Shown: positions 23,276 through 39,057, counted from the stretch's first letter. The stretch: DNA of 64,000 nucleotides from Candidatus Krumholzibacteriota bacterium (GCA_024275485.1 JAJRZA010000050.1:18033-82032); one strand, 5' to 3'. Notes: a model not told the origin generated them from the letters alone. Program-made: numbers and translations.

Positions 23276-24817
23276 CTAGTCTGAATACCCAAGATCCCGC
23301 AACCGTTGGCGCACCGTATCGTCAAGATCATCCCAACTCTCATCAGAAGAGCTACCACCGTCAGCGCCGGTTCCCGAATCCTGCCATAGGGTGAGCACAC
23401 CCTGGAGTCGAACCACCACTTCGGAGTTGGAGGATTGAACATCCGATTTTTCATCGGGGTCGCCCTGCAAATCAAATAGGGCAAGGACAAACCCATCCCG
23501 TCGGGCGATCATCTTCCAATGCCCCTGGCGAATGGCCACCAGATCAGGACCAAAGGCGATGGCTTCGGCCAGGATAATACGATTGTTTTCATCGGCACCT
23601 GACAAGTGGCTGAATGGTGAATCCGCAGCCTGGGAACAACCCTGGAGCAAACCCGCCAGATTGCCGGAAAGCGACTCCAACCGCGTCTGCAAAACCGGCT
23701 GTTGCAAAGGCGGCAACTTCAGCCAGTCCAGTACGGTGGGGGTGAGGTCGCAAAGGGAAATGGGCTCCTGGCATTGTACACCCGCCTGCACTCCAGGACC
23801 CCAGGCCGCCCAGGGTACATGCAGCAACTCCTGAAAATGCGAGTGACCGTGCCCAATACCCCGGATTTCCCGTGGGTCATGATTCCATTGGCGGGCAAAT
23901 TCCGCGTGGTCCAGGAATTCTTCCCCGTGGTCCGAAAAAACCGAAACCAGAGTCGAGTCGGCGAGCCGCCAATTTTCCAATTGCTCCTGAATTTGTCCAA
24001 TGACGCGGTCAACACCACGGATGGTGGCATCGTATATGGCCAGCTTTGTTTTGACGGAATTTTGAGACACCGGTGAATCCGGATCATCCAGAAAACCCAG
24101 GTGTTGGTGGGGCGGCTCACCCCAGCGGGCAAAGGCTGCCAATTTTTCTGGATGGCTCAATTCCTCTTCGGTCAAGAACTTGGCCAAATCGTCCGCAGTC
24201 GGAGTGGTTGGTTCGTGCGGATCATTGAACAGGACAAAACAGAAAAATGGCTGATCGGCGTGGCGACGAATCCAGTCCTGGGCCATGCCAGCCAGATCTA
24301 TGGCGGGCAGATTTTGGTACTCGTGGTGGTCAAAACTCTCGGCCAGCCCAAAGGCAAAAAACTGATTGGAGTAGAAAGCTGCCGTGCGGTAACCCAGTTT
24401 TTTCAGATGAGCCGCCAAAGTGACGATGCCGTCGTTCAACCGTCCGGGGGGTTGTTGATCCATGTTCCGCACTTCACCGGAGAGAACTCCTCCGTGCAAA
24501 CCGGGCATCACTCCGGTCAAGGCACTGGTGAACGATGGCAGGGTCCAAGGCGCGGGGGCGGTGACCTCGGTGAAGATGGTGCCCCCGCCGGCCAATCGAT
24601 CCAGATTTGGGCTGATGGGGCCGCCGCCGTATCCGCCAAAACCCAGGTGGTCGGCCCGCAGGGTATCAATACCCAGCAGCAACAGATTGGCCGGACCCGG
24701 TCGCTCGGGCACAATTCGACTGGGCCGAAAAGCACGGCCCAGAGCCAGCTTCATCCTAAACAAACGAGCCTTGATCCTTGTTTTGCGAGTGAGTTTTTCA
24801 AACGGGTTGACGGGCAT
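23276..24817 (-). CDS. Sulfatase/alkaline-phosphatase-superfamily protein
   Basis: IDTLRADH, APWTLPSF, DPHEP, SDHGEEF, HGH and the C-terminal LRDLGY motif. Confidence 0.85.
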   Translation of the reverse strand: MPVNPFEKLTRKTRIKARLFRMKLALGRAFRPSRIVPERPGPANLLLLGIDTLRADHLGFGGYGGGPISPNLDRLAGGGTIFTEVTAPAPWTLPSFTSALTGVMPGLHGGVLSGEVRNMDQQPPGRLNDGIVTLAAHLKKLGYRTAAFYSNQFFAFGLAESFDHHEYQNLPAIDLAGMAQDWIRRHADQPFFCFVLFNDPHEPTTPTADDLAKFLTEEELSHPEKLAAFARWGEPPHQHLGFLDDPDSPVSQNSVKTKLAIYDATIRGVDRVIGQIQEQLENWRLADSTLVSVFSDHGEEFLDHAEFARQWNHDPREIRGIGHGHSHFQELLHVPWAAWGPGVQAGVQCQEPISLCDLTPTVLDWLKLPPLQQPVLQTRLESLSGNLAGLLQGCSQAADSPFSHLSGADENNRIILAEAIAFGPDLVAIRQGHWKMIARRDGFVLALFDLQGDPDEKSDVQSSNSEVVVRLQGVLTLWQDSGTGADGGSSSDESWDDLDDTVRQRLRDLGYSD

Positions 24818-24898
24818 GAATCTCTCTTTTTTGCGGGAGGTGGGGCTATTCAAACACACTTACTGGACTCTGCCCATCGTGAACACTACCATTCGGGA

Positions 24899-25366
24899 AT
24901 GAAGTTGCTGGACTATACAACAGATAATGGCTTCCTGCCTCATATCAAGTGCACAAGTGTGGACGAGGCGGTGGCCCAGTTGGTTGAGGTGCTGGAAACA
25001 TCCGGTGCGGTGACCGATGGAAAGAACCTGGCTGTGGAGGTCATGCGAAGGGAAAGGGAGGGCAGCACCGCCATTGGTGGTGGCTTGGTATTACCTCATG
25101 CCCGCCATCAAGGAGTCAAAAGCATGAAGGTGGCGGTGGCCACTTTGGCTGAGCCCCTGGATATTCCGTCCGAAGACCACCAGCCTGTGGATATTGTCAT
25201 TCTGTTGGTGGGGCCCGCCCATGACCCCCGTTTGATGCTCTGGGTGTTGGCCCGCTTGGCTCGGCTTGTAAAAAACAGAGATTTTCTGGATGATTTGCGG
25301 GGTGCCGAGACAGGTGTGGATCTCAGGAAAGTATTTGCCATGGCGGATGATCAGCGCAATGACTGA
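24899..25366 (+). CDS. PTS EIIA (Ntr/Fru-type) domain protein
   Basis: REREGSTAIGGGLVLPHAR with the phospho-His; this is the C-terminal part of listed ORF 24101..25366. Confidence 0.88.
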   Translation: MKLLDYTTDNGFLPHIKCTSVDEAVAQLVEVLETSGAVTDGKNLAVEVMRREREGSTAIGGGLVLPHARHQGVKSMKVAVATLAEPLDIPSEDHQPVDIVILLVGPAHDPRLMLWVLARLARLVKNRDFLDDLRGAETGVDLRKVFAMADDQRND

Positions 25367-25412
25367 TGCAAAGCTGTGGGCGATCCCCGGGGCTTGGCCA
25401 GTTGTTCAGATA

Positions 25413-25946
25413 TCAAGAGTCTGTCGTAGACTCAAAGAAACTGGCTTTCACAACCGAAAAAATTATCCCGGACAATCCTAGAACACATAGGCCCGCACCT
25501 GGAATCGCCATAAAGGCGAGGGACTCCTTGGCAGCCCCGGTGCTGCCCAACCCGGGGGCGGTGAGTCCGGCAAAGAGCCAAAAAAGGGAATAAATGAGTG
25601 ACCCGGAGCCAAAAGCCAATGCACTCAGTTTGGCAACCATTCCCAGTCGCCCAAAAAGAATCAGGGCCATGATCGAAACCAGGGCAGAGGACCCAATTGC
25701 CCCGCCGTGGAGGTGGGCCCGCTTCAGGTATGACCACGATTTGTTGACAACCTTGTCCTTGGCGGAAACATCTCCGTGATAAGCAGTCTGCAATGCCGAG
25801 GTTCCGGAATCATCCAGGTGAGCTTTGATTGAACTTTCTTTGGCACCAAAAGAAAGACCCAGGACAAATCCAAAAAGAATCGTCATCAAGGCCAGACTAA
25901 TTCCCATGGCCATGGTTTTGGGAATGTCCGAAACTATGGTGTTCAT
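25413..25946 (-). CDS. Hypothetical 4-TM membrane protein
   Basis: Hydrophobic helices, an AHLH motif and RBS AGGAGG. Confidence 0.7.
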   Translation of the reverse strand: MNTIVSDIPKTMAMGISLALMTILFGFVLGLSFGAKESSIKAHLDDSGTSALQTAYHGDVSAKDKVVNKSWSYLKRAHLHGGAIGSSALVSIMALILFGRLGMVAKLSALAFGSGSLIYSLFWLFAGLTAPGLGSTGAAKESLAFMAIPGAGLCVLGLSGIIFSVVKASFFESTTDS

Positions 25947-26168
25947 TGTTGTTGGTCCTCCTGCGGTTTGTTTGATTTGAGAAAGACGGTCAATCCACTC
26001 GACAATGGGTAGAGTAACGTGTTGACCCCCTTCACGTCACGATCATTTTTATCTTCATAGTTGAAGCTGATTTTCAATTACAAAATTATTCCAGACCGAC
26101 TTGATTCCAATAATTTCCAAGAAAATGCCCAGGTGATCAGCCTGCTTCTTGACAAGAATAATCCACAC

Positions 26169-26197
26169 TTGAACCGCGCGTGATCCTGGGCTACTTT
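26169..26197 (+). promoter_or_regulatory. Putative sigma70 promoter TTGAAC-N17-TACTTT flanked by palindromes
   Basis: 17-bp spacing; perfect palindromes at 26146-26158 and 26211-26225. Confidence 0.45.
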
Positions 26198-26255
26198 CTC
26201 TCTTCTACCCTGAAGTTGAACTTCATGCTAATTCCCCTTGAAGGGAGCTCTCTCA

Positions 26256-28637
26256 ATGACCGGTTATCCTAAGGGTGCCACCAAGGCGCTGGGTTGGATG
26301 CTGACGTTGGCGGCCTTTGTAGGTGTGGTACCACCAACCATGGCCCTAGACGCCGACCACTTGATCCTAAGCGAGATCGTGGCTGAAACCCATCCCAACT
26401 TTATCAGCACGGGCAGTTCGTACATTCAGGTGGTCAACCCCACCGGCAGCCCTGTGACTATGGACCAGGTGTACATTACAAACGGTACATTCTTCAGTGC
26501 GGTCTATTATTACAACCTGCCTCTTGGCGATCCTGCCACCCACAATCCAGGCGGAGGCACAGGCGGGTCTTTCCACGCACGTTTTCCTTCAGGGTATGTG
26601 CTGGCTGCGGGGGACTCCCTGGCTATCTCCATTGATGGAAGTGATCATTACCTGGAAAGGTATGGTCGGTTGCCCGATTTCGAACTCTTTGAAGATGCAA
26701 ATGCACCGGATATGGTGCCAGAACTGCTGGAGGTCTTTCCCGGCTCCATCAATGCCGGCAGCATCGTGGGTGGGACCAATACTCCTGCCCTGGGAATTTC
26801 ATCCGGAACTGTAATTCTTTACACCTGGGATGGAGCTTCCGATCTGGTTCAGGACCTGGATTACCTGATCTGGGGGACCAACACTGGTGTGCGCGCGGAT
26901 AAAACCGGGGTGACAATCGGGTCGGAAACATACCTGGACGACACCCCCGTTGCCGACCAGGAACAAGTTCCAGGTGATGGGCCAAGATTGCGTCACTCCC
27001 TGCGCCGTATCAGCGCCGATGAAGGTTCTGAAAGCCTCAGTGGTGGCAATGGTGTCGATGGGCATGATGAAACCAGTGAGAATCTGGCAACCACCTGGCG
27101 AGATGTGGACTTTACGGTGGAAGGCCATGGTGTTCCTTCAGCACCCGGTAGCTTTCATCCTGCTGCCCCTATTTTTGTTGCCACCGGCATGAGCCCGGCC
27201 GCCCCCTCCGATGGACAGGAAGTTGTGCTGAGCGCGACCTTGGTCAGCAACAGCACCATCAGCAACGTTACTTTCCACTACACCGTTGATGGTGGCTCGT
27301 TGATTGATCTTGCAGGTGCCAACACCACTGGCGACGAATACGTCGCCACCGTTCCCGCCCAGGTTGCAGGTTCTGTTCTGGTTTGGTACGTCACCAGTGG
27401 GAACGCCGACGGTGGAATTGCTGTTTTTCCAGCGGCCGCACCTGCCTACTCTGGAAACTGGACCGTGGCCGAAGCCCCGAATCCCAGTGACTTCCCCGCC
27501 AAGCTCCTGATCACCGAGGTGGCTACTGTTGGCTCCGCCCAGGAATTTGTGGAGATTTACAATCCGGGCACCGAAGACGTCGACATGGGTAACTATTACC
27601 TGACCGACGCCAACTATTCCCCAGGCGGTCAATACTACTGGCGCATCACCGAAGGGACTCCTAATTCGGGAACAATCGGTGGTGGTGCCTTCAGCGATTT
27701 CCACAGCCAATTCCCCGAGGAATTCATCCTGGCGGCCGGAGATACCATTGTGGTTTCCGTGGCCGGCAGTCAGGACTTCTCGGCTTTCTATGGTTTCCTG
27801 CCCGACCTCGAATTGTATGAAGACGACGATTTCCCGGATATCGTTCAGGATATGCGCTGGGTATTTGGTGATGAAGTGGACAACAGCATCATCAACCGGA
27901 CCGGCAGCATCCCCTCGACACCGACCTTGTCCAACGGTGCCGAAACAGTGATTCTGTACCACTGGGACGGCACCAGCGATGGTATCACCGACATCGATGT
28001 CTTCCACTGGAAAGACTCGGAATCGACTACAACAAGTCACTTCTTCAACAAGACCAACGTGACTATCGGCAGCCATAGCTACCTGCCTGAAGTCGGAACC
28101 GGACTATCGACAACATTCCCTCTTGAGGCTTCCTTCGGACTGTCCTATCACCGCATTGATGCCACCGAAGGCAATCAATCGCCCTCCGGCAGCAATGGTG
28201 TCCTGGGTCGAGACGAAACCTCCGAAGATCTGTTTAACACCTTCGAACTTGCTGAATACGATCCAAGTCGCCCCAGCGAATCCGAAGGTGGCGGCGGCGG
28301 CACCATGGAACTGGTGGTGGAGGCCAAAACCTTCATCCCGACCATGGGTGAGTTGATGCCCATCCGCTTTGTCTCCAATGCCCGAAGTGAAACCAGGCTG
28401 CGCCTCTTTGACATGGAGGGCCGTCTGATATTCACTCTGTGGGACAGTCGGCGCAACGGCCCCCCCTCGGTTGTTCCCGGCGCCTACACCATCGTGAACT
28501 GGGACGGCAGGGATAATCATTACGAACGTGTGAGGGCGGGGTTGTACATCCTGCACCTGTCGGTGGTTGACAACCGCACCGGCGAAGAAGAAGTCCAAAC
28601 CGCGCCCGTGGTCGTTGCCACGCGGCTCAGCAAGTAG
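26256..28637 (+). CDS. Secreted protein with two lamin-tail-like domains and a C-terminal FlgD-Ig/T9SS-CTD-like domain
   Basis: Signal peptide; duplicated module LI(L/T)(S)E..(Y/F)(I/V)..NP....FH.(R/Q)FP...LAAGD...YG.LPD.EL.ED...DETSE; C-terminus LFDMEGR...WDGRD...AGLYILHL. Confidence 0.78.
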   Translation: MTGYPKGATKALGWMLTLAAFVGVVPPTMALDADHLILSEIVAETHPNFISTGSSYIQVVNPTGSPVTMDQVYITNGTFFSAVYYYNLPLGDPATHNPGGGTGGSFHARFPSGYVLAAGDSLAISIDGSDHYLERYGRLPDFELFEDANAPDMVPELLEVFPGSINAGSIVGGTNTPALGISSGTVILYTWDGASDLVQDLDYLIWGTNTGVRADKTGVTIGSETYLDDTPVADQEQVPGDGPRLRHSLRRISADEGSESLSGGNGVDGHDETSENLATTWRDVDFTVEGHGVPSAPGSFHPAAPIFVATGMSPAAPSDGQEVVLSATLVSNSTISNVTFHYTVDGGSLIDLAGANTTGDEYVATVPAQVAGSVLVWYVTSGNADGGIAVFPAAAPAYSGNWTVAEAPNPSDFPAKLLITEVATVGSAQEFVEIYNPGTEDVDMGNYYLTDANYSPGGQYYWRITEGTPNSGTIGGGAFSDFHSQFPEEFILAAGDTIVVSVAGSQDFSAFYGFLPDLELYEDDDFPDIVQDMRWVFGDEVDNSIINRTGSIPSTPTLSNGAETVILYHWDGTSDGITDIDVFHWKDSESTTTSHFFNKTNVTIGSHSYLPEVGTGLSTTFPLEASFGLSYHRIDATEGNQSPSGSNGVLGRDETSEDLFNTFELAEYDPSRPSESEGGGGGTMELVVEAKTFIPTMGELMPIRFVSNARSETRLRLFDMEGRLIFTLWDSRRNGPPSVVPGAYTIVNWDGRDNHYERVRAGLYILHLSVVDNRTGEEEVQTAPVVVATRLSK

Positions 28638-28649
28638 AGAGGGTGAGCG

Positions 28650-29540
28650 ATGTTTCGGAAACTAACTATTATCTGCATTCTGGCGGCGCTTGGCCTCAAC
28701 AGCAGCACCGCACTGGCGGTTTTTGAGGATATTGCCGTCAGTCCGCGTGCGCGGGCCATGGGCGAAGCCGGTTCTGCCGTCGTCGATGGTGCTTACGCCA
28801 CCTACCTGAACCCGGCGCACCTGGGTTTGACCACCACGGGTTCCATCGCCGCAAGCTATGTGAAACCCTTCCAGCTGACTTTCAACGACTACTACCACCT
28901 GGGGGCAGCCGTGCCCATCAGTCCCGGCAACGGGGCTTTCGGCATCAGCCTGACCCAGTTCAAGGTGGAGCACGAGAATGTCAAATTGCTGGAAGAAAAC
29001 CGTATCAGTTTGGGTTATGGAAGAGCCCTGTACAGTGACATGCACTCCCAGGTCGATCTGGGAGCTTCGGTCAACATGTACCACCTGAAATTCGGCGAGA
29101 CCACTTCGGGTCTCGACCCGGGCAATGATTCCGCCCTGGGTATTGATCTAGGCCTTTTGGTGACGGTTCACAAGCGCACCAGGTTGGGTGTGATGGTCAA
29201 GAACCTGAATAATCCCCAGATCGGTATCGACCAAGAAGAACTCGCCCATCGTGTGATTGGGGGCGTCAGCTACGAACCCTATGATGGCGTGATCACCACT
29301 TTTGAAATCGACAGCGAGCTCGGTCAGGATGTTCAGTACCGGGGTGGTGTCGAATTCTATGCGGCCCAGGGTTTTGCCCTGCGAGCCGGTATCGTCACCA
29401 AGCCCAACAAACTGACCGCGGGCTTTGGTTACACCCTGGATCGTTTCTCCCTGAACTATGGTTTTTCCACCGGCGGCGGGACCTTGGATAGCACTCACCA
29501 GTTCGGGCTGAACATTGCCTGGGGCGGTGAGACACAGTGA
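28650..29540 (+). CDS. PorV/PorQ/PorP-like outer-membrane beta-barrel
   Basis: Signal peptide, SPRARAMG...NPAHL N-terminal hatch, beta-strands, KNLNNP and THQFGL. Confidence 0.72.
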   Translation: MFRKLTIICILAALGLNSSTALAVFEDIAVSPRARAMGEAGSAVVDGAYATYLNPAHLGLTTTGSIAASYVKPFQLTFNDYYHLGAAVPISPGNGAFGISLTQFKVEHENVKLLEENRISLGYGRALYSDMHSQVDLGASVNMYHLKFGETTSGLDPGNDSALGIDLGLLVTVHKRTRLGVMVKNLNNPQIGIDQEELAHRVIGGVSYEPYDGVITTFEIDSELGQDVQYRGGVEFYAAQGFALRAGIVTKPNKLTAGFGYTLDRFSLNYGFSTGGGTLDSTHQFGLNIAWGGETQ

Positions 29541-32113
29541 GAAAAAACAATCACAGCAGCGGAGAAATCCGCCTGCGCGGGCTGCTGACCATGGGCTTTG
29601 TGCTCGTGGTGGCGCTGTCTGGTTTGCTGGCTTTGCCCAGCTTGCCCGGTGGCGGGGCAGCTTGGGCCGCGCAGGGTGGCAGTCCTCCCGTGGATTTGAA
29701 TTCGGCCTCCCTGGAAGAGGTGATGACCCTGCCCATCAGCGAAGAAGTGGCGCGCAACATCGTTCACTTCCGCACCTATATTCGTTTCTTCAGCAACGTT
29801 TACGAGCTGAGGGATGTCGATGGCGTCACGGTGGAGGTATTGAATACCCTCAAGCCCCTGGTGTCGACCATGCCACCACCTGACCAGGACGCTTCCATCG
29901 CCCGCCTGAGTGCAAGCTACCGCCAGGTGCAGCGCTATCTTGGGCAGGAAGGATCCAACGAGGGATTGGCTGATGAGTATCTGGACCGCATGCGTAGCCC
30001 GGGCAACGTCAACAACATGGACCTCTACGACCTGATGTCGTATCAAAATGTCTCGCCGGTGGATGCAACCAATATCCTAAAGGCTCGAGATCGACTTGGT
30101 CGTTTCGATAGCGCCCGCCAGCTCAGGCGCAGCGAAGGTTTGCGCTACTGGGCATTCCGCAACATGCGCGACTTCGTGGTTTATGACGATGAGGAGGTCC
30201 ACAGCGAGAAATCCAGCAACGTCAAAGGTTATTACCAAATCCGCTACCACGAAACTCCATTCAGCAACGATGACGACGAACTGGGAAAATTTGCCACCGG
30301 TGTGCCGCGAGGGCGTTTTGCCGTGGGGGATTATTATCTCTTCAAACCCGGCCTGCTGAATAAAATTCGCTTCCACACCAAAGAGGGTGTGGTGGGTGGT
30401 CTGCTGACCAACCGCGAATTTGGTGAAAAAAACTGGGATGAAACGGTCAAGGGATTTGTCGGCATTACCAACCTGCGCAACGAAAACGGCGGGATCAAGG
30501 GCATGTACTTCGGCAACTACCGCGTGGCTTTCGGTCTGGGTCTGGTTATGGACAACACCGATTACATCCACTACCGCAAAACCGGTTTCGGATTCAACAA
30601 ACGGCTGCTCGGCGTGCACGGCGATTTGAGTCGCAGTCACGAATACGCCCTGACCGGAGCCGCCATCGAAGGCTGGCTGGGCCCGGTGAACGCAACCTTC
30701 TTTGCCTCCAGTGGCAAGAAGGACGGTATCATGAATCCTGACGGAACCATCAACCGTTATGTCAACATGCAGCCCCGACCCAATGCCGACTGGCTGATTG
30801 AGCGCACCGTCGATATTGGGGAACCGGATGAAAGGCCCACTGACCTGCGCCGCGACGCCTTCAGCGAAAGTCTCATCGGCGGCAACGTCAAACTGATGCT
30901 CGCTCCCGGAACCTTCATCGGTTTGACCGGCTACGAGGCCCGTTACGACAAGGCCTGGCGCGCCGACGAAACCACGCTGGTTATGGCGTCGAACCTGGAC
31001 CTTCTCGAAGCCCGGGACAGCGAAATCTGGAACTCCTACACCAGCAGCTTCGAAAACGAAGACGGCACGGTGGACGAGTACAAGTGGCGTCGCGTGATGG
31101 GTGCCGAAGCCCAGGCTGTTTTCAATAACGTTTCAATTCAGGGGGAGTACGCTTTCCTCCAGGATCCTCGCAACAAGTTTTTCACCACCAGGAACCCCGA
31201 TGCCTACCTCATCAACGCTTTCAGCCAATGGAACAATCTGCACCTGCTGGCGATCTACCGCGATTATGATGTTGGCTTCGACAACCCGTACAACCGGGCC
31301 TTCAGCAACGACAACCGTTATGAAATGACGTTGCTGGATGCGCCTTATCGTTTGAACGACGATTTGTACACCTGGGTGGAAACCAATACGCCCGCGCCCA
31401 AACCCGAAAAGGGTATTTTTCTGGAGGCGCGTTACAGGATCAGTAGCAAGCTGATTCTCAGCGGGCTGCAATTCGACCAATGGACCCGCAAGGCCGATGG
31501 TGCCGATCTGATGCGATACACCATCAAGGGCGAATACCAGCCCAAGTTCAATCTGCGTTTCCGAGTGCGGCACCGTTTCAGCAGCCGCACTGAAAACAAC
31601 CCGGATGATGTGAGAACATTCAAAAACTGGGAAACGCGCTGGCAAATGATTGCCCTGTTGAGCAATTACAACCGGTTGGGCTTCACCTACATGACCAGCA
31701 ACGTGATGTTCCCGCCCCGGCCCCGTCTGGGGGGAACCCCCGTTCCTGGTGGCCTTCCTGCCGTGGGAACAGCCGGCAGTCCAGCCAGCGCTTTTGAGGT
31801 CCGCTACGAGCACAACATCACGCCGGGACTGAAATTCACCTTTGCTTCGTCGGTCTATGACGGGTTCCTCTGGAACTTTGAAGGCAACGAATTCGTGCTG
31901 CTGGATGGCAACGGATTCCGCAACTGGTTCAAGATTGAGAGCCGCGTTTCCGAACGCCTGCTTTTTCAACTGAAGATCACGCGCGATCACAACCTGCCCA
32001 AAACCTATGTGGATGTGCGTCGGTTCGGCGAACCTTCGGGACTCGACCCCGACGCCAGCTACGTACCCCAGGATGACACCATTGTCCGTCTGCAGATGGA
32101 TTACACGTTCTGA
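29537..32113 (+). CDS. ComEA-type helix-hairpin-helix domains fused to a large outer-membrane beta-barrel
   Basis: VDLNSASLEEVMTLP...FSNVYELRDVDGV and a second HhH NVNNMD...GRFDSARQL; GNYRVAFGLGLV; C-terminal LQMDYTF outer-membrane signature. Confidence 0.8.
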   Translation: MRKNNHSSGEIRLRGLLTMGFVLVVALSGLLALPSLPGGGAAWAAQGGSPPVDLNSASLEEVMTLPISEEVARNIVHFRTYIRFFSNVYELRDVDGVTVEVLNTLKPLVSTMPPPDQDASIARLSASYRQVQRYLGQEGSNEGLADEYLDRMRSPGNVNNMDLYDLMSYQNVSPVDATNILKARDRLGRFDSARQLRRSEGLRYWAFRNMRDFVVYDDEEVHSEKSSNVKGYYQIRYHETPFSNDDDELGKFATGVPRGRFAVGDYYLFKPGLLNKIRFHTKEGVVGGLLTNREFGEKNWDETVKGFVGITNLRNENGGIKGMYFGNYRVAFGLGLVMDNTDYIHYRKTGFGFNKRLLGVHGDLSRSHEYALTGAAIEGWLGPVNATFFASSGKKDGIMNPDGTINRYVNMQPRPNADWLIERTVDIGEPDERPTDLRRDAFSESLIGGNVKLMLAPGTFIGLTGYEARYDKAWRADETTLVMASNLDLLEARDSEIWNSYTSSFENEDGTVDEYKWRRVMGAEAQAVFNNVSIQGEYAFLQDPRNKFFTTRNPDAYLINAFSQWNNLHLLAIYRDYDVGFDNPYNRAFSNDNRYEMTLLDAPYRLNDDLYTWVETNTPAPKPEKGIFLEARYRISSKLILSGLQFDQWTRKADGADLMRYTIKGEYQPKFNLRFRVRHRFSSRTENNPDDVRTFKNWETRWQMIALLSNYNRLGFTYMTSNVMFPPRPRLGGTPVPGGLPAVGTAGSPASAFEVRYEHNITPGLKFTFASSVYDGFLWNFEGNEFVLLDGNGFRNWFKIESRVSERLLFQLKITRDHNLPKTYVDVRRFGEPSGLDPDASYVPQDDTIVRLQMDYTF

Positions 32114-32135
32114 TAGATCCGAGGAGTTTGGAGAG

Positions 32136-33476
32136 ATGCGTAAAAGAATTTCAATCAAAGCAATGACCGGAGCCATGGCTGCTCTGGCATTGTTCGGTCT
32201 ACTGGTGAGCGCCGTGCCCGCAGGTGCGGTTCCCCAAATAATGGCTGAATACGGTGATCAAATGGCCTGGCGTGGCGCCGACATCAATGCCATGGGTGGA
32301 ACCGGTGTGGCCCTTTATCGGGGTGCCATATCCAATATCTACAACCCAGCCATGCTGACGGGCGGCCCCAGTGATGGGCGTCTGGATATCAGTTTGTCCA
32401 TGGACCAGGAGCACGAAGACCGCTTTCAGCCCCTGTTTGATTCCTTCCAGAGTTGGGTGGCCGACGCAGCCATCGCCAGCAATCGCAACCATTACTGGCA
32501 GACGGGTTTCGGTATTGCCGGCGCGCCCCTGGGTGGGGAAACTCCCATCCGTGTGGGTCTGTCCCTGGTGGACCGCTACCCCTTCCAGTACAATTTCGAT
32601 GAGGAACTGCGCAATCCCAGCCCGTTCAATCCTGGTGACGACGAGCCCGCCCGCGACCAGATCATCGAAATGCGCCAACGGGAAGTTCGCGGTACCCTGC
32701 GCACCCTCTCTTTGGGTGTGGGTGCCGATGTTGACGATGAAATCGCCATCGGAATGGCCCTGCACTATGCCTTCGGCAGCCGGGAAGAAACCAACACCGT
32801 GCGCGACTACGTGACCGAGGCCAACAGCTACCACAACGTCACCAAATATGACATGAACGGAGTCAATTTCTCCCTGGGCGTGCGTGGCAAGATAAGTGAA
32901 CGGGTGGAGTTGGGCCTGGCCTATGAAAGCCAGCTCGCCACCACCGGTGACTACAGCGAATCCCTTTACGATCCCAGCCTCACCGCCGCGGATGAGACCA
33001 CATGGGGCGGCTACTTGCGCTATCCCAACATATATCGGGCAGGCCTGACATTCATGCCGCAGACCGATCCTCGCACCATCTTCACGGTGGAGATGGAGTA
33101 TTCGGCCTGGAGCGAGCTTGCGGACAGCGAAAATCCAGGGTACGATAACCCGCAAAACCTGCAGGATACCATGGATGTGCGCATTGGCCTGGAGCATCGT
33201 TTCTACAACGGTCTTCCCCTTCGTTTCGGGTTCCGTCATTACGACAGCTACGCCGATGCCGAAGCCTCCGCATCGGTATTTTCAGCCGGCACCGCTTTTG
33301 CCATTGGGCGGGGTGAGTTGGCGGTGTCCATGGAGTTGAGCAAGCTCACCTCCATACAGTCCCACCAGTTCCCGTACCCGGACAATTACTTCGGCGACAA
33401 TTTCACGTCCGATCCCGATGCCAGGGTAGAGGACACGAGATTCCGGATCGGTGTGGGCTACACGCAGAACTTTTAG
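32136..33476 (+). CDS. FadL/OmpP1-like outer-membrane transporter
   Basis: Signal peptide, AMGGTG...YNPAML hatch motif, beta-strands and C-terminal GYTQNF. Confidence 0.7.
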   Translation: MRKRISIKAMTGAMAALALFGLLVSAVPAGAVPQIMAEYGDQMAWRGADINAMGGTGVALYRGAISNIYNPAMLTGGPSDGRLDISLSMDQEHEDRFQPLFDSFQSWVADAAIASNRNHYWQTGFGIAGAPLGGETPIRVGLSLVDRYPFQYNFDEELRNPSPFNPGDDEPARDQIIEMRQREVRGTLRTLSLGVGADVDDEIAIGMALHYAFGSREETNTVRDYVTEANSYHNVTKYDMNGVNFSLGVRGKISERVELGLAYESQLATTGDYSESLYDPSLTAADETTWGGYLRYPNIYRAGLTFMPQTDPRTIFTVEMEYSAWSELADSENPGYDNPQNLQDTMDVRIGLEHRFYNGLPLRFGFRHYDSYADAEASASVFSAGTAFAIGRGELAVSMELSKLTSIQSHQFPYPDNYFGDNFTSDPDARVEDTRFRIGVGYTQNF

Positions 33477-33489
33477 GAGTTGAGAGCTG

Positions 33490-35235
33490 TTGAAAGCAGC
33501 TGAAAGCGAGAATGAGATGAGCATCAAACGCGGCACGATTTTTGGTTTCCTGCTGCTTTCCCTATGGATGTTGGCCGGCGTTGCCGGTGCGGCCGATGAC
33601 AAGAATGACGGCATCTTGCGGCTAAACCTCATATGGACCAATGATCTGCACGGGCACATCGCCCCGGAACCTGCCCGCTTCATGAACCCCGAATTCCCGC
33701 CGCCACTGGGTGGCGGCGCTTCGGCGGCTCGTTACATCAAGGAAATCCGCGCCAGGGCCGAGGCCAACGGCGAAGCTTTCCTTCTGGTTGATGTGGGTGA
33801 CATGTTCCAGGGCACACCTATAGGATCGAAGACCAAGGGCACTGCGGTCATCGAATATTTCAACGCCATTGGTTACGATTTTGCCGTTCCCGGCAACCAT
33901 GATTTCGACATGGGTAGGGAGAACACCGAGCGTCTGGCCCGCATGTCCAACTTTCCCTGGGTCTGTTGCAATCTGGCGGAGACCGAAACCGGCGAATTGG
34001 TTGATTGGGTTTTGCCGGACCTGATGCTCGATATGCAGGGCATCAAGATCGGAGTGGTGGGCATCATCACTCCATCCACCAAGACCATGAGTTTTCCCAA
34101 GAACGTCAATGGTTTGGACTTTATGAATATGCCCGAGCAGATTTCGGAACGCCGGGATATTCTACTCAGCGATGGCGCTGATTTGATCTTTCTGGCCATC
34201 CACGAGGGTTTGCCCTACGACCCGGACAGAGGCTGGAAGCGCATTGCAGGTGCCACCGAAACCGAAACCGCCGGGGAGAACCAGGGAACCTTCGGCAGCA
34301 ACTATTCGGCCAATGGCATGAACCTGATGGAGCTGGTGAATGAAGTACCTGGTATCGATTTTGCCGTGGGAGGGCACACGCATCGCGGGTATCATCTCCC
34401 CTGGATTGATCCGGTCAACCATACCATGTGCTTTGAGAGCTTTGGCAACGGCAGCAGCATCGGGCACGTCATTTTGTTGATCGACCGGGAGACCAAATCC
34501 CTGGTGGGATACGAAGGGTCTCACGATCGCGGCACTCTCATCACCCTCTTTGAAGATGAAATCTGGCCTGACGAGGAAATTGCCGAAGTCATTCGTCCTC
34601 ACCAGGAAAAAGCCCAGGAGGCCATGCGCAAAGTCGTTGGTACTTCGGCTTTCCCCCTGGGACGCGGCGGTCCTGGAGCCAATCTGGTGGGCAACCTGGT
34701 GACCGACGCCATGGTCGCCTATTTTGAAGCTGATTTCAGTTTCCAGAATATGGGTGGATTGCGGGCCGATTTACCAGGCGGCGATTTGACCAGCGGCGAC
34801 ATTTTCAGCGTGCTGCCCTTCGGCAACGAACTGGTGGTGGTGGAGATGGACGGCCGCCTGGTGCGCCGGATCATCGAACAAAAACTCGCTGGCCGCAGTG
34901 GCGGTATCTGCACCGGAGGTGCGAAAATCTTTTTCGACAAAACCCGACCCGATTTTGATCGGGTTGTGGAGTTGGAAATTGCCGGTGAACCCTGGAGTCC
35001 GGACCGGATTTACAAAGTGGTCTGCACCAGCTTTCTCATGGAGGGAAACAGCAACCTGGGATTCCTGACTGCCATTAGTCTGGATAAGGTCATGCCTACC
35101 GGTATTATCACTGCCGAGGCGGTGGAGCACTATCTCTCGGAGAATGACCCGGTGCGTCCCAAGGTGGATGATCGCTGGGTTGAAAAAACAGGGATGGCCC
35201 AGAAAGCTTATCTGGGTGTAGAGTATTTGCAGTAA
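33490..35235 (+). CDS. Exported bifunctional 5'-nucleotidase/UDP-sugar hydrolase (UshA-like)
   Basis: TNDLHG, DVGDMFQG, GNHDFD and GGHTH motifs; C-domain NMGGLR and LPFGN; signal peptide. Alternative start at 33517. Confidence 0.92.
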   Translation: MKAAESENEMSIKRGTIFGFLLLSLWMLAGVAGAADDKNDGILRLNLIWTNDLHGHIAPEPARFMNPEFPPPLGGGASAARYIKEIRARAEANGEAFLLVDVGDMFQGTPIGSKTKGTAVIEYFNAIGYDFAVPGNHDFDMGRENTERLARMSNFPWVCCNLAETETGELVDWVLPDLMLDMQGIKIGVVGIITPSTKTMSFPKNVNGLDFMNMPEQISERRDILLSDGADLIFLAIHEGLPYDPDRGWKRIAGATETETAGENQGTFGSNYSANGMNLMELVNEVPGIDFAVGGHTHRGYHLPWIDPVNHTMCFESFGNGSSIGHVILLIDRETKSLVGYEGSHDRGTLITLFEDEIWPDEEIAEVIRPHQEKAQEAMRKVVGTSAFPLGRGGPGANLVGNLVTDAMVAYFEADFSFQNMGGLRADLPGGDLTSGDIFSVLPFGNELVVVEMDGRLVRRIIEQKLAGRSGGICTGGAKIFFDKTRPDFDRVVELEIAGEPWSPDRIYKVVCTSFLMEGNSNLGFLTAISLDKVMPTGIITAEAVEHYLSENDPVRPKVDDRWVEKTGMAQKAYLGVEYLQ

Positions 35236-35294
35236 TATCTGACAATATTGCAATCTGATGCCGTAAATGCAGTTACAAAATAATATTCATGCTT

Positions 35295-35342
35295 AAGCCC
35301 GCCTCACAGTGACCGAAACCTTGGTCAGAGGCGGGTTTCTTT
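35295..35342 (+). terminator. Intrinsic terminator after the five-gene envelope operon
   Basis: CCCGCCTC..TGACC / GGTCA-GAGGCGGG stem followed by TTTCTTT. Confidence 0.6.
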
Positions 35343-35470
35343 GGGGACGGATCCTCAACCGAAAGCCAGTTTCTTCGCCGGTGGATCTTTTTCATGACAG
35401 GATCCACCGGAGGGACAAGGAAGTCCTAGGGCGGCACCAGGATAGTGCCAGAATCAAGGCGGACACGGAA

Positions 35471-36709
35471 GTGAAGATTCTCAAAAAAGACAAACGCAAT
35501 GAACAGCTCATTCGGTTCACAACCCATATGAACAAGATGGTGGTTGGTCAACCGGTTGCCATCGACAAACTCACCGATAGTTTCAGCAGGCTGATCGCCG
35601 GGGTTCACGATCCCGAGTCGCCCCTGTTGACAATGATGTTCATGGGACCAACCGGTGTGGGAAAAACCGAAACAGTGCGCGCTCTGGCCGAAACAATCTT
35701 CGGCAACAAGCGGGCCTACACCCGGGTGAACTGTCAGGAATATTCCGCCCATTACAATATCAGCAAACTGCTGGGCTCGCCTCCCGGCTATGTGGGCGGA
35801 GAAATCCGGCCTCTGCTGGCTCAGGAAAATATTGATCGCCACCACCGAAAGGCCCTGGAGAACCAATCGGGTCTGGTGAGTGAACCGGGAAGCAAGCTGA
35901 GCTCAATGTACTCTCCGGAAGCCGAAAAAAATCTTTCCATCATCCTCTTCGACGAAATCGAAAAGGCGCACCCCAAGCTGTGGAATCTGCTGCTGGGTAT
36001 GCTGGAAGATGGAACCGTGGTCCTGGGGAACAATGAAGAAGTGGACTTCCGCCAGTCCATCATTATCCTGACGACCAACGTGGGCAGCGCCGCCATGGGA
36101 GCCCACCTGGCGCAGAACAACATTGGCTTCTCCTCGGGCATCAGCGAAGAGACCATGGATCACGACATCGAAGAAGCGGCCATGCGCGAGGCCAAAAAAG
36201 TATTTCCCTTTGAATTCATCAACCGCTTTGACGACATCATCACCTATCACACTCTCAAGGAAACGCACCTGTACAGCATTCTGGACATCCTGATCGCCCA
36301 AATCCACCACCGTTCACTCATGTGCTCGGAGCCCTTCCTTTTGGAAATCACCCAGGATGCAAAGACCAAACTGGTGAAGGCAGGCACCGATATTCAATAC
36401 GGCGCCCGTCCCCTGAAAAGAATTGTGGAGAAGGAAATCGTCACTCCCATTTCCCATTACATTTGCAGCGACCAGATTCGCAAAGGCGATTTGATCACGG
36501 TGGACCTGGAGGAGGGGGAATTCCTGTTCCGCAAGGAAACCGGCGTTACCAGTTGGGAAGAGCTGGAAGGCCTCGGACCATTCCCGGAAGCCAAGTGGGC
36601 CAAGGAAGATCTGGGGGTCAAGGATGACGGTGGCGAGAAAAAACAGATCGTCGAGGAGATTGTCCAGGTGGTTGCTAACGCAGGGGCCTTGACCGGGGCA
36701 GAGGATTAG
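35471..36709 (+). CDS. Stand-alone ClpB/ClpA-D2-type AAA+ ATPase
   Basis: VVGQ, Walker A GPTGVGKT, pore loop PPGYVG, Walker B FDEIEKAHP, EFINR and YGARPL. Probable GTG start at 35471. Confidence 0.85.
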   Translation: MKILKKDKRNEQLIRFTTHMNKMVVGQPVAIDKLTDSFSRLIAGVHDPESPLLTMMFMGPTGVGKTETVRALAETIFGNKRAYTRVNCQEYSAHYNISKLLGSPPGYVGGEIRPLLAQENIDRHHRKALENQSGLVSEPGSKLSSMYSPEAEKNLSIILFDEIEKAHPKLWNLLLGMLEDGTVVLGNNEEVDFRQSIIILTTNVGSAAMGAHLAQNNIGFSSGISEETMDHDIEEAAMREAKKVFPFEFINRFDDIITYHTLKETHLYSILDILIAQIHHRSLMCSEPFLLEITQDAKTKLVKAGTDIQYGARPLKRIVEKEIVTPISHYICSDQIRKGDLITVDLEEGEFLFRKETGVTSWEELEGLGPFPEAKWAKEDLGVKDDGGEKKQIVEEIVQVVANAGALTGAED

Positions 36710-36843
36710 GACCACCTGGTTGAAAAAACCCCCCAGCCAAAAAGGCCGGGGTTGAAAATGGATTCCGCGACAAAACAATTATAAAACTTCATTGATCAAT
36801 CGATTCGCAATGCGATTCGGTAAAGCGTTGGCCTGATGGAATT

Positions 36844-37182
36844 CTAGGGCCAGTACAGAATGCGCCCGCAACTTTCACATTTCTGAACCCTGTTGGCGTT
36901 CGTCTTGCTGACAAACTGAGCAGGAATGTTGGCAAAGCAGCCGGTGCAAAGATTGTTCACAACCGGAACAACCGCATGGCCAAATTTGTCGGTCAGCCGG
37001 CGATACCAGCTCATGTGGCGCGGATCAACTTTTTCCGCCAGTTGATCACGGGCTGTTTTCAAATCATCAATCCCGCCATGCTTGAAGCCCATACCCTCGA
37101 GTTCATCACCCTGGGTTTCCACTTCCTTGAGCATGCCTTCCATATCCTGCAGGGCAACCAGAAGCTGGAGTTGTGGATTCAT
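36844..37182 (-). CDS. Short C4 zinc-ribbon protein (DUF164/zf-RING_7-like)
   Basis: CTGC...CESCGRILY; N-terminal LLVALQD helix. Confidence 0.8.
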   Translation of the reverse strand: MNPQLQLLVALQDMEGMLKEVETQGDELEGMGFKHGGIDDLKTARDQLAEKVDPRHMSWYRRLTDKFGHAVVPVVNNLCTGCFANIPAQFVSKTNANRVQKCESCGRILYWP

Positions 37183-37184
37183 GC

Positions 37185-37646
37185 CTACTCCCCTTTCATG
37201 GCGGTGCAGAAAGATTCATAGTCTTCGGCGATCATCAGGCTTTCCCGCAAATCAGCATCCTGGATGCGATCGATGAGGGCAGCCAGGCTTTTGATGTACT
37301 GATGGCCGGAGTCCTGGGGTGGTGCGATCAAAACAAAGAAGAGCTTGGTGGGATTACCGTCTTCCGAATCGAAATCCACGCCTTCAGGGCAGCGGCCAAT
37401 CAGGATGGTCAGGCGTTGCACCGAGAGGGTACGACCGTGGGGGAAGGCGATGCCGGGGGCCACTGCCGTGCTGCCCAGGTTTTCCCGGCTCTGCAGCATC
37501 TGCATGATGTTGTCGGCGTTGTTGATTTCGGTTCCGCTGATGAGGCCCTTGACCAGTTCGGCCAAAGCGCCATCCTTGTCGGTGGCCTGAATGTTGGGAA
37601 GAAATAGATCGGATGAGGTGTGTTTGAGAACCTCGACAATATCCAT
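37185..37646 (-). CDS. PTS EIIA (Ntr-type) domain protein
   Basis: RENLGSTAVAPGIAFPHGR and GVDFDSEDG motifs. Confidence 0.88.
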   Translation of the reverse strand: MDIVEVLKHTSSDLFLPNIQATDKDGALAELVKGLISGTEINNADNIMQMLQSRENLGSTAVAPGIAFPHGRTLSVQRLTILIGRCPEGVDFDSEDGNPTKLFFVLIAPPQDSGHQYIKSLAALIDRIQDADLRESLMIAEDYESFCTAMKGE

Positions 37647-37738
37647 TGCGTTGCACCGCCTTGAGAATGCCACCAAATTGTGTTAGGACTGATTCAATGA
37701 AAAGCTAACCGATCCCTGGACGATCCACAAGTTTCAAA

Positions 37739-38764: not shown

Positions 38765-39057
38765 GGGTGGTCAGCCAAACAAACCATAGAAACGAAGGGC
38801 TTCTTCGCCTTCGTGTAGAAATTTGTCCAGGGGTAAAATTCCCGTGGGCGGGTTCCAGGGAGTTGATCTTTCCACAAGTTGGGTTTTTTGCCAACCGGGT
38901 AAAGGATTACCCAGCAGCAGGTGCGATTTGGCGGTAACTTCGTAAAGACCCAGCAGGTCCGTAGTAATGGCAATGAGGCAGATACAAGCAAAAGGCAAGG
39001 GGCGCATCATTCTCTCCCTGGTCAGGTTTTTCCAGGTCGACGCAAAGCGTATGCCAG

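What the first reader, a model, noticed from the sequence alone, without database searches (positions are those of the whole stretch)
26256..35235. Five-gene envelope operon resembling an extracellular DNA/nucleotide capture-and-salvage machine
Seen: tightly packed co-oriented genes (gaps of about 25 bp or less), all with export signals, bounded by a promoter-like region and a terminator. Order: double lamin-tail protein with CTD, PorV/PorP-like barrel, HhH-containing barrel, FadL-like barrel, 5'-nucleotidase. Established: ComEA HhH domains bind DNA non-specifically; lamin-tail domains often accompany extracellular nucleases; PorV/PorP-type barrels shuttle or anchor T9SS cargo; UshA dephosphorylates nucleotides. 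Inference: a TonB- and pilus-independent system for binding, importing and salvaging nucleic acids. It is my best candidate here for an undescribed multi-gene system. No nuclease is recognisable inside the operon.
Basis: partly seen in the sequence, partly recalled or inferred. Interest (0 to 1): 0.85.

Follow-up and report, generated by a model that had tools for sequence, protein, structure and literature searches.

The report
Conserved outer-membrane nucleic-acid scavenging gene cluster
Five neighbouring envelope genes, kept together in several little-known bacterial phyla, probably form an undescribed outer-membrane system for capturing and salvaging extracellular nucleic acids or nucleotides, though its "DNA-binding" domain more likely acts as a plug for its own channel.

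Summary
Window 26256-35235 carries five co-oriented, tightly packed genes for exported proteins:
- g1, a double lamin-tail protein with a T9SS-like C-terminal domain
- g2, a PorV/PorQ-like barrel
- g3, an 858-aa protein with two HhH domains and a 24-strand barrel
- g4, a FadL/BamG-like barrel
- g5, a UshA-type 5'-nucleotidase

A conserved promoter-like block lies upstream and a terminator hairpin downstream.

The order g2-g3-g4-g5 behind a CTD-bearing cargo gene is kept in Krumholzibacteriota. It is also kept in Eisenbacteria-labelled genomes, where the flanking genes differ, and mostly in a 24-29% identical subfamily from metagenomes.

Relatives' loci supply the missing DNA link. They add a stand-alone ComEC-type metallo-beta-lactamase nuclease, cargo with OB folds and DUF5689 (the DdbD domain of Bacteroidales DNA-utilization loci), and a UgpB-like ABC importer.

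The HhH domains are acidic and lack G-h-G hairpins, and a model places them inside the barrel as a plug. g1 is very acidic, and this operon holds no nuclease.

Best reading (0.5): a T9SS-linked outer-membrane system for nucleic-acid or nucleotide uptake and salvage, not driven by a TonB-dependent transporter. I found no published description. All evidence is computational.

The parts
26169..26197 (+). Promoter-like block: TTGAAC (26169-26174), 17-nt spacer, TACTTT (26192-26197)
   Evidence: Read. Both hexamers are conserved while the spacer varies in 4 of 4 aligned orthologous upstream regions. The E. coli-type consensus scan did not call it. Function is inferred.
26212..26224 (+). Conserved palindrome GAAGTTGAACTTC in the 5' leader. 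It could be an operator or a leader hairpin; its role is unknown.
   Evidence: Conserved block in the alignment; sequence read.
26256..28637 (+). g1: exported 793-aa surface cargo. Order: signal peptide, LTD-like repeat 1, Ig-like domain, LTD repeat 2, C-terminal T9SS-like beta-sandwich.
   Evidence: LTD 55.1 bits. Internal repeat 35% identical, E 3e-46. AF2 pLDDT 83, all beta-sandwich. The C-terminus superposes on the P. gingivalis PPAD and PorU CTD region, and no nuclease fold is seen. Only a weak PorU-tail match, E 0.012. Net charge -72, pI 4.2.
28650..29540 (+). g2: 296-aa PorV/PorQ-family outer-membrane barrel, the presumed anchor or shuttle for the CTD cargo
   Evidence: NF033709 70.2 bits, E 2.3e-19, below the cut-off of 90. 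Found directly upstream of g3 in 70 of 70 and 54 of 57 loci. Its stop overlaps the g3 start by 4 bp.
29537..32113 (+). g3: 858-aa protein. Signal peptide (aa 1-44), two degenerate acidic HhH domains (aa 51-109 = nt 29687-29863; aa ~155-225 = nt 29999-30211), and a 24-strand barrel (aa 229-858 = nt 30221-32110).
   Evidence: HHH_3 62.9 bits. AF2 model. Foldseek finds only generic large barrels, TMq 0.28 or less. Lumen-facing K+R 34 against D+E 17, with an Arg ladder at R674/676/678/680/684. The N-terminal domain is modelled docked in the barrel: score 0.83 against a best control of 0.00.
32136..33476 (+). g4: ~446-aa FadL/BamG/PorV-superfamily barrel, the presumed second adaptor
   Evidence: Toluene_X 26.8 bits (cut-off 29.7). 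BamG NF053685 62 bits, E 5e-17 (cut-off 250). Follows g3 in 50 of 50 genome-contig loci. Ends in ...GYTQNF.
33517..35235 (+). g5: UshA-family 5'-nucleotidase or phosphoesterase with an SPI-type signal, no CTD and no lipobox. Periplasmic by default.
   Evidence: Metallophos 46.5 and 5_nucleotid_C 96.9 bits. Aligns to solved nucleotidases (3ivd E 3e-49, UshA 1ush E 1e-26) with the DxH, GD, GNHxFD and GHxH motifs kept.
35295..35337 (+). Terminator-like hairpin followed by UUUCUUU
   Evidence: MFE -28 kcal/mol, z -3.19; 1 of 200 shuffles folds as well. The scan missed it because of its internal loop.

Best explanation
The operon encodes an outer-membrane station for scavenging extracellular nucleic acids or nucleotides. 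It is built from type IX secretion parts, not from a TonB-dependent transporter.

Proposed steps:
1. g1 is exported by the T9SS and stays on the surface, held through its C-terminal domain by the PorV/PorQ-like barrel g2. The FadL/BamG-like barrel g4 may also help, much as BamG holds BamH.
2. Surface cargo holds the polymer near the channel. In relatives this cargo carries OB-fold and DUF5689 DNA-binding modules. A secreted ComEC-type MBL nuclease cuts the polymer. That nuclease is encoded inside the locus in some lineages and elsewhere, with a T9SS CTD, in this genome.
3. Oligonucleotides or nucleotides cross the outer membrane through the g3 barrel. Its lumen is arginine-rich, and at rest its own acidic N-terminal HhH domain plugs it.
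4. The periplasmic 5'-nucleotidase g5 releases nucleosides and phosphate for uptake. Some lineages have a UgpB-like ABC importer in the locus.

Shown: gene content, conserved synteny and domain homologies. Inferred: every binding, transport and catalytic step, the substrate, and the gating.
For: Synteny:
- g2-g3-g4-g5 are colinear in 27 of 27 fetched loci of the phylum.
- They are also colinear in Eisenbacteria-labelled loci, where the flanking EIIA, HslU, RsgA and GT9 genes are absent.
- Tallies, genome contigs set: 5'-NT 50 of 50, g4 50 of 50, g2 70 of 70, LTD/CTD cargo 50 of 50.
- Tallies, distant metagenome subfamily: 5'-NT 31 of 39, g2 54 of 57.

Nucleic-acid links in relatives' loci:
- A stand-alone MBL protein matches the ComEC nuclease domain (TIGR00361 positions 442-633, E 3e-23; PDB ComEC MBL domains E 1e-16). 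It sits between g4 and g5 or upstream in 11 of 50 loci.
- Cargo carries DUF5689 at 48.5 bits (cut-off 28.6) and an OB fold at 44.5 bits (cut-off 27), plus ExeM/NucH N-terminal modules, E 6e-27.
- DUF5689 is the domain of DdbD and RA0C_RS04920 in Bacteroidota DNA utilization and transformation (PMC12478041, Results read; PMC8459023, passages read).

This genome:
- It has SprA (481 bits summed).
- It has a ComEC-type MBL fused to a T9SS CTD (E 1e-31; TIGR04183 28.7 bits against a cut-off of 23).
- g5 keeps the catalytic motifs.
- The g3 lumen is net basic and has an Arg ladder.

Plug model: score 0.83, best of 3 controls 0.00. That mark was reached by 58 of 80 solved complexes and 2 of 110 mismatched pairs. 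Runs agree in at least 67% of contacts and the partner's pLDDT is at least 71. My own alignment was used, and the two chains are halves of one protein.
Against: - The window's operon contains no nuclease, OB fold or DUF5689.
- g1 is extremely acidic (net -72), and so is relatives' cargo (net -26 to -123).
- LTD has no demonstrated DNA-binding role and was dispensable for ExeM activity in vivo.
- g3's HhH domains are acidic and lack G-h-G hairpins family-wide. The same genome's ComEA is canonical and basic, pI 10.2.
- The ABC importer in relatives is of the UgpB/CUT1 type (glycerol-phosphate or sugar), not a known nucleoside importer.
- UshA-family enzymes also act on UDP-sugars, NAD and cyclic nucleotides.
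- 8 of 39 distant loci lack the 5'-NT.
- The strand assignment and lumen charges rest on a model of only moderate confidence (pLDDT 68).
- There are no expression or biochemical data.
Confidence: 0.5

Rival explanations
1. It is an outer-membrane DNA-uptake channel for natural transformation. It would resemble the Riemerella RA0C_RS04915/04920 pair in role and deliver long DNA to ComEC, not feed catabolism.
For: Relatives' cargo carries DUF5689 and OB folds. Relatives' loci contain a ComEC-type MBL nuclease. g3 has ComEA-like HhH domains. Its 24-strand barrel has as many strands as the pilus ushers among its Foldseek matches; that ushers have 24 strands is recalled. ddb loci and the Riemerella transformation locus are related.
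Against: The module is almost always paired with a degradative 5'-nucleotidase (50 of 50 and 31 of 39) and sometimes with an ABC importer. The genome already has a canonical ComEA beside a type IV pilus or type II secretion ATPase-like gene (named from reading its translation), a ComEC and two secretins. The HhH domains are acidic and degenerate.
Confidence: 0.13
2. It is a scavenging system for other phosphorylated substrates, such as free nucleotides, NAD, UDP-sugars, glycerophosphodiesters or phosphorylated polymers. Phosphate would be the prize and DNA would not be the specific substrate.
For: UshA-family enzymes are broad (NCBIfam matches to UshA, NadN and CpdB-type models). Relatives have a UgpB/UgpE-like importer. 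The g3 lumen is arginine-rich. A sulfatase/phosphodiesterase-superfamily gene is a conserved upstream neighbour within the family. The capture proteins are acidic.
Against: The ComEC-type nuclease and the OB, DUF5689 and ExeM/NucH modules in relatives point specifically to nucleic acids. The sulfatase neighbour is not kept outside the phylum.
Confidence: 0.17
3. It is a T9SS-associated surface-display or adhesion platform, for example for attachment to an eDNA-containing matrix or to particles. The 5'-nucleotidase would be only a loosely coupled passenger.
For: g1 is an all-beta, multi-Ig, adhesin-like protein with a PorU/PPAD-like C-terminal domain. g2 is PorV/PorQ-like. The genome has 132 FlgD_ig-type CTD matches, so it secretes a very large set of T9SS proteins.
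Against: It does not explain the conserved large barrel with a plug domain, nor the near-invariant 5'-NT linkage. g3 is not a core T9SS part: SprA is in 101 of 101 genomes of the phylum but g3 in 43 of 101.
Confidence: 0.08

Closest known systems
ddbABCDEF DNA-utilization locus of Bacteroides thetaiotaomicron (Sharan et al., PNAS 2025, PMC12478041; Results section read)
   Same: Both are envelope loci that combine surface substrate-binding proteins, an outer-membrane channel and periplasmic or secreted hydrolases for exogenous DNA. Relatives' cargo carries the DdbD domain DUF5689.
   Different: - The channel here is a 24-strand barrel with an HhH N-terminal domain, not the TonB-dependent transporter DdbC.
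- Surface proteins carry T9SS CTDs, not lipoprotein signals.
- PorV-like and FadL-like barrels are present.
- The fixed enzyme is a 5'-nucleotidase.
- The window's operon has no nuclease and no DUF5689.
Riemerella anatipestifer natural-transformation genes RA0C_RS04915/04920 and the HhH protein RA0C_RS02645 (PMC8459023; passages read)
   Same: A pilus-independent outer-membrane DNA route in the FCB group, with a DUF5689 surface protein and an HhH protein.
   Different: There the barrel has a CarboxypepD_reg domain, which the paper's authors call common in TonB-dependent receptors, and the HhH protein is a separate protein predicted to be periplasmic. Here the HhH domain is fused to a different barrel and is degenerate.
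ComEA, the periplasmic DNA-binding competence protein
   Same: The same Pfam HHH_3 fold, twice, at the presumably periplasmic N-terminus of g3.
   Different: - Below the ComEA family cut-offs.
- One residue shorter at the first hairpin.
- G-h-G hairpins are nearly absent.
- Acidic, whereas the genome's own ComEA is basic.
- Predicted to contact the barrel interior.
T9SS attachment pairs PorV-PorU and PorQ-PorZ, and BamG of the Bacteroidota BAM complex (PMC12611786; passages read)
   Same: FadL-fold barrels that hold surface proteins or dock on a larger barrel. g2 best matches the PorV/PorQ family and g4 best matches BamG.
   Different: Both fall below the curated cut-offs. The partner barrel is a new family. 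No PorU- or PorZ-type enzyme is in the locus.
DNA-degradation loci of Ca. Izemoplasmatales (Wasmund et al. 2021, PMC8289736; passages read)
   Same: They co-localise LTD-containing nucleic-acid-binding proteins, nucleases and ABC importers; those MAGs also encode extracellular 5'-nucleotidases.
   Different: Those organisms are wall-less or monoderm and have no outer-membrane components. Their LTD protein contains a nuclease domain.

Membership tests
ComEA (TIGR01259 / TIGR00426) | HHH_3 (PF12836) domain present | tested here: met
   62.9 bits against a cut-off of 27, two stretches.
ComEA (TIGR01259 / TIGR00426) | Score reaches the curated family cut-off | tested here: not met
   30.1 against 152.35, and 20.3 against 53.1.
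ComEA (TIGR01259 / TIGR00426) | G-h-G hairpins and a basic DNA-binding surface (this defining feature is recalled; the genome's own ComEA served as the comparison) | tested here: not met
   G-h-G occurs in 1, 1, 0 and 2 of 54 relatives at the four hairpins. The HhH region has pI 4.9, and 48 of 54 relatives are acidic. The genome's own ComEA HhH has pI 10.2 with LPGVGK and KGIGKK.
ComEA (TIGR01259 / TIGR00426) | Binds DNA | not testable with these tools
   Needs EMSA or anisotropy assays.
PorV/PorQ family (NF033709) | Score reaches the curated cut-off | tested here: inconclusive
   g2 scores 70.2 bits, E 2.3e-19, over nearly the whole model (7-325 of 326), but the cut-off is 90.
FadL/OMPP1 (PF03349) and BamG (NF053685) | Score reaches the curated cut-off | tested here: not met
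   g4 scores 26.8 against 29.7, and 62 against 250. This is superfamily-level likeness only.
UshA-type 5'-nucleotidase | Metallophos and 5_nucleotid_C domains, with the metal-binding and catalytic motifs | tested here: met
   46.5 and 96.9 bits. DxH, GD, GNHxFD and GHxH align with the solved nucleotidase 3ivd. The UshA equivalog cut-off of 600 is not reached (153.6), so g5 is a family member and not an UshA ortholog.
Lamin tail domain (PF00932) | Domain over the cut-off, present twice | tested here: met
   55.1 bits against 34.3 for repeat 2. Repeat 1 is 35% identical to it, E 3e-46.
T9SS cargo (type A CTD, TIGR04183 / PF18962 / PF13860) | The C-terminal domain matches a CTD model | tested here: inconclusive
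   g1 has no CTD-model hit at E 1 or better, only a PorU-tail match at E 0.012. Its model superposes on the PPAD CTD region (about 100 residues, rmsd 2.9 A) and on PorU. Cargo at the same position in other loci passes the cut-offs: 30.8, 36.5 and 28 bits.
T9SS cargo (type A CTD) | The genome encodes a T9SS translocon | tested here: met
   SprA ORF of 2183 aa, 481 bits summed.
Ddb-type DNA-utilization locus | TonB-dependent transporter DdbC | tested here: not met
   g3 has no TonB_dep_Rec or Plug Pfam match at E 0.1 or better.
Ddb-type DNA-utilization locus | DUF5689 substrate-binding protein DdbD | tested here: not met
   None in g1 at E 1 or better. It is present in relatives' cargo (48.5 bits).
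Ddb-type DNA-utilization locus | Secreted nucleases within the locus | tested here: not met
   None in the window's five genes. A ComEC-type MBL lies in 11 of 50 relatives' loci and on another contig of this genome.

The most novel reading that the evidence does not exclude
g3 founds a new class of gated outer-membrane polyanion translocon. It is a 24-strand, arginine-lined barrel plugged by a ComEA-derived acidic tandem-HhH domain. FadL-fold adaptors (g2, g4) flank it and hold T9SS-delivered capture proteins. Together they would give several FCB phyla a route for oligonucleotides or DNA across the outer membrane that needs neither TonB nor a pilus. The route would be usable for nutrition and perhaps for transformation.
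Probability: 0.3. Interest if true: 0.85.

Novelty: new variant of a known kind. Interest (0 to 1): 0.7.

Why it matters
Extracellular DNA is a major pool of phosphorus, nitrogen and carbon in sediments and sludge. How diderm bacteria outside the Proteobacteria and Bacteroidales bring it across the outer membrane is largely unknown.

This module is widespread:
- It is single-copy in most genomes that carry it.
- It was found in 31 of 31 and 7 of 7 sampled genomes of two candidate phyla.
- It was found in 43 of 101 genomes of the window's phylum.
- 407 loci were confirmed among one-genome-per-species contigs.

If the reading is right, the module defines a third architecture for outer-membrane nucleic-acid acquisition, beside secretin/pilus/ComEA systems and the TonB-dependent DdbCD. 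It would also give the T9SS a nutritional role in uncultured FCB lineages. The plugged HhH barrel is a concrete target that can be expressed and tested with structural and electrophysiological methods.

Tried and rejected
- LptD-like LPS translocon: rejected. g3's N-terminus is helical HhH, and a separate 1339-aa ORF carries LptD_N. The PF04453 search found nothing, but that model rings in only 2 of 14 control genomes, so it is uninformative.
- Core T9SS component: rejected. SprA is in 101 of 101 genomes and g3 in 43 of 101.
- Specific fold relative for the g3 barrel: none. Foldseek against PDB gave only generic large barrels (SlpA, Occ porins, ushers, MtrB) with TMq 0.28 or less.
- Nuclease fold in g1: none.
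- ExeM/NucH family in this genome: no match at E 1e-5 or better (the genome is 96% complete).
- Synteny within the phylum alone turned out to be weak evidence, because about 20 kb of flanks are also colinear. The cross-phylum loci carry the argument.
- Expression: the look-up of sequencing runs listed no RNA holder. It listed only small-share DNA holders (0.13 and 0.05 of the words).
- Consensus promoter/terminator scan: its counts were no higher than in shuffles, and it missed both sites I propose.
- ESM Atlas, queried with the homologue P0031, gave leads only. These are look-alike clusters commonest in Fidelibacterota, Cloacimonadota and Bacteroidota (scores 0.97-0.98). They were not verified.
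- Literature: searches found no description of an HhH-barrel, PorV-like and 5'-nucleotidase locus. Supplementary tables of PMC12478041, PMC8289736 and PMC11495043 were closed and could list such loci.

Full report
**Observation.** Window 26256-35235 holds five + strand genes.
- g1 starts at ATG 26256 behind GGGAG.
- Gaps between genes are 12, -4, 22 and 40 bp, using the most likely starts of g4 (32136) and g5 (33517).
- Each product begins with a signal-peptide-like N-terminus, read from the sequences. No predictor was available.
- Upstream lies a 310-bp AT-rich spacer. In it, TTGAAC-17 nt-TACTTT (26169-26197), a palindrome (26212-26224) and the ribosome-binding site are conserved in 4 of 4 orthologous regions, while the sequence between them varies.
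- Downstream, a hairpin at 35295-35337 (-28 kcal/mol, z -3.2) precedes UUUCUUU. The generic scanner found neither site.

**Domains**.
- g1: LTD at 55.1 bits, plus an N-terminal copy 35% identical to it (E 3e-46). Its AF2 model (pLDDT 83) is all beta-sandwich. The C-terminal domain superposes on the CTD region of P. gingivalis PPAD and on PorU, and there is no nuclease fold.
- g2: PorV/PorQ family, 70.2 bits, below the cut-off of 90.
- g3: two HHH_3 stretches (62.9 bits) followed by a barrel.
- g4: FadL (26.8 bits) and BamG (62 bits), both below cut-off.
- g5: Metallophos and 5_nucleotid_C above cut-off, with the catalytic motifs aligned to solved nucleotidases.

**Organism.** The window is contig 33 of a 3.98-Mb, 96% complete genome. 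Names on close homologues point to Candidatus Krumholzibacteriota. The genome has:
- SprA;
- 132 FlgD_ig-type CTD matches at E 0.01 or better, about 118 of them over the cut-off by my count of the list;
- a canonical basic ComEA beside a type IV pilus or type II secretion ATPase-like gene (named from reading its translation);
- ComEC and two secretins;
- a separate LptD_N-bearing ORF.

**Is the cluster real?**
- g3 relatives occur in 43 of 101 sampled genomes of the phylum: family f1 35 of 38, f6 6 of 8, f3 1 of 3, and the other six families 0.
- In 27 of 27 fetched loci, g2-g3-g4-g5 keep their order. The flanks are colinear too, so this alone is weak evidence.
- The decisive loci come from other phyla. 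A pattern scan confirmed 407 of 408 candidates, and 80 were kept.
- In Eisenbacteria-labelled loci (g3 36-42% identical), the flanking EIIA, HslU, RsgA and GT9 genes are gone. CTD cargo, g2, g3, g4 and the 5'-NT remain in order.
- Tallies for that set: 5'-NT 50 of 50, g4 50 of 50, g2 70 of 70, and LTD/CTD cargo 50 of 50, among loci with enough sequence.
- A more distant subfamily (24-29% identical; 125 of 266 candidates confirmed, 80 kept) keeps g2 in 54 of 57 loci and the 5'-NT in 31 of 39. g4 was seen in 18 of 39, but the query was weak. Eight loci lack the 5'-NT.
- g3 relatives were found in 31 of 31 and 7 of 7 genomes of the phyla of two such loci.
- The exhaustive representative search gave 608 clusters at E 1e-3 or better and 101 at E 1e-30 or better. 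Full-length relatives reach down to about 28% identity.

**What relatives add.**
- In one Eisenbacteria-type group, the locus runs in this order: MBL protein, two CUT1 permeases, UgpB-like binding protein, CTD proteins, g2-g5, more LTD proteins.
- The MBL protein matches the nuclease domain of ComEC (TIGR00361 positions 442-633, E 3e-23; PDB ComEC MBL domains, E 1e-16).
- In other lineages, including some of the window's own family, the same gene sits between g4 and g5. In all it is present in 11 of 50 loci.
- Cargo upstream of g2 in distant loci carries DUF5689 over the cut-off (48.5 bits), an OB fold (44.5 bits), and repeated ExeM/NucH N-terminal modules (E 6e-27).
- DUF5689 is the domain of DdbD, the proposed DNA-binding partner of the transporter DdbC in the B. 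thetaiotaomicron DNA-utilization locus. It is also the domain of RA0C_RS04920, which is needed for Riemerella transformation.
- The window's operon lacks all of these. The genome does encode, on contig 14, a ComEC-type MBL (E 1e-31) fused to a T9SS sorting domain.

**The g3 protein.**
- AF2 (pLDDT 68.3, pTM 0.66) gives helices over aa 59-222 and 24 strands. Turns on one side are 2-5 residues and loops on the other are long, which fits a periplasmic N-terminus.
- Foldseek finds only generic large barrels.
- Lumen-facing strand residues are net basic (K+R 34, D+E 17) and include an Arg ladder.
- The HhH region is not ComEA-like in detail. The first hairpin is one residue shorter. G-h-G hairpins are almost absent family-wide. 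Net charge is -7, and 48 of 54 relatives are acidic.
- I folded the barrel and the N-terminal region as two chains. The score was 0.83 against a best control of 0.00. That mark was reached by 58 of 80 solved complexes and 2 of 110 mismatched pairs. Runs agreed in at least 67% of contacts, and the partner's pLDDT was at least 71.
- Contacts run from the inter-HhH helices and the invariant QNVSPVDA hairpin of HhH2 to two places: lumen-facing barrel residues, and the most conserved in-folded loop (341-367). HhH1 makes no confident contact.
- This suggests a plug, as in TonB-dependent transporters. It is a model of two halves of one protein made with my own alignment, and it does not prove anything.

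**Weighing.**
- For a nucleic-acid or nucleotide role: the near-invariant 5'-NT, the ComEC-type nuclease, the OB/DUF5689/ExeM modules, and the basic lumen.
- Against: nothing in this operon is DNA-specific except by association. g1 (net -72) and all related cargo are very acidic. LTD function is unknown. The importer in relatives is UgpB-like.
- I therefore put 0.5 on a nucleic-acid or nucleotide capture, import and salvage station. Smaller weights go to transformation (0.13), other organophosphates (0.17) and surface display (0.08).

**Novelty.** Six literature searches found no description. The barrel region matches no Pfam or NCBIfam model. Databases label relatives only as 'helix-hairpin-helix domain-containing' or 'ComE-like' proteins. 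The kind of system, an envelope DNA-utilization locus, is known from Bacteroidales. The channel, the adaptors and the secretion route differ, so I class this as a new variant of a known kind.

Noticed in passing
window 26212-26224: A perfect palindrome, GAAGTTGAACTTC, lies in the g1 leader and is conserved in 4 of 4 orthologous upstream regions. It could be an operator or a leader hairpin of unknown regulator.
   Followed up: partly
own genome, contig 14 (L144:1150-2406, - strand): A 418-aa protein joins a ComEC-type MBL nuclease domain (E 1e-31) to a T9SS type A sorting domain. It would be a secreted version of the competence nuclease domain, and it is unlinked to the operon.
   Followed up: partly
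own genome; includes window 7958-8122: The 3.98-Mb genome has 132 FlgD_ig-type CTD matches, so it secretes a very large set of T9SS proteins. One match lies in a 733-aa frame inside this window.
   Followed up: no
L061 (G056:C5), G049:C6, G037: In G056, g3 is interrupted by stop codons (one TGA, one TAA) while g2, g4 and g5 remain. In G049 it is split into two frames. G037 has three full-length copies on three contigs.
   Followed up: no
window 23276-40224 and loci L035-L054: About 20 kb is colinear across the family: sulfatase-superfamily gene, EIIA(Ntr)-like gene, the operon, HslU-like ATPase, RsgA, heptosyltransferase. The long ORF 24101-25366 overlaps the sulfatase gene on the other strand. 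Only its C-terminal EIIA part (aa 281-411) matches a family, so its true start is probably later.
   Followed up: partly
L118:15559-21282; also L120, L126: In some Eisenbacteria-labelled loci, a 1,900-aa bacterial alpha-2-macroglobulin gene directly follows the 5'-nucleotidase.
   Followed up: no
L129:19780-20967 and relatives: In one Eisenbacteria-type group, a Na+/Ca2+ exchanger-family gene follows the downstream LTD proteins. Together with the extreme acidity of the cargo, this hints at a role for Ca2+.
   Followed up: no
ESM Atlas look-alikes of P0031: Look-alike clusters of 705-917 aa HhH proteins are commonest in Fidelibacterota, Cloacimonadota (auto-named 'putative competence protein ComEA, modular protein') and Bacteroidota. 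The family may span much of the FCB superphylum.
   Followed up: no
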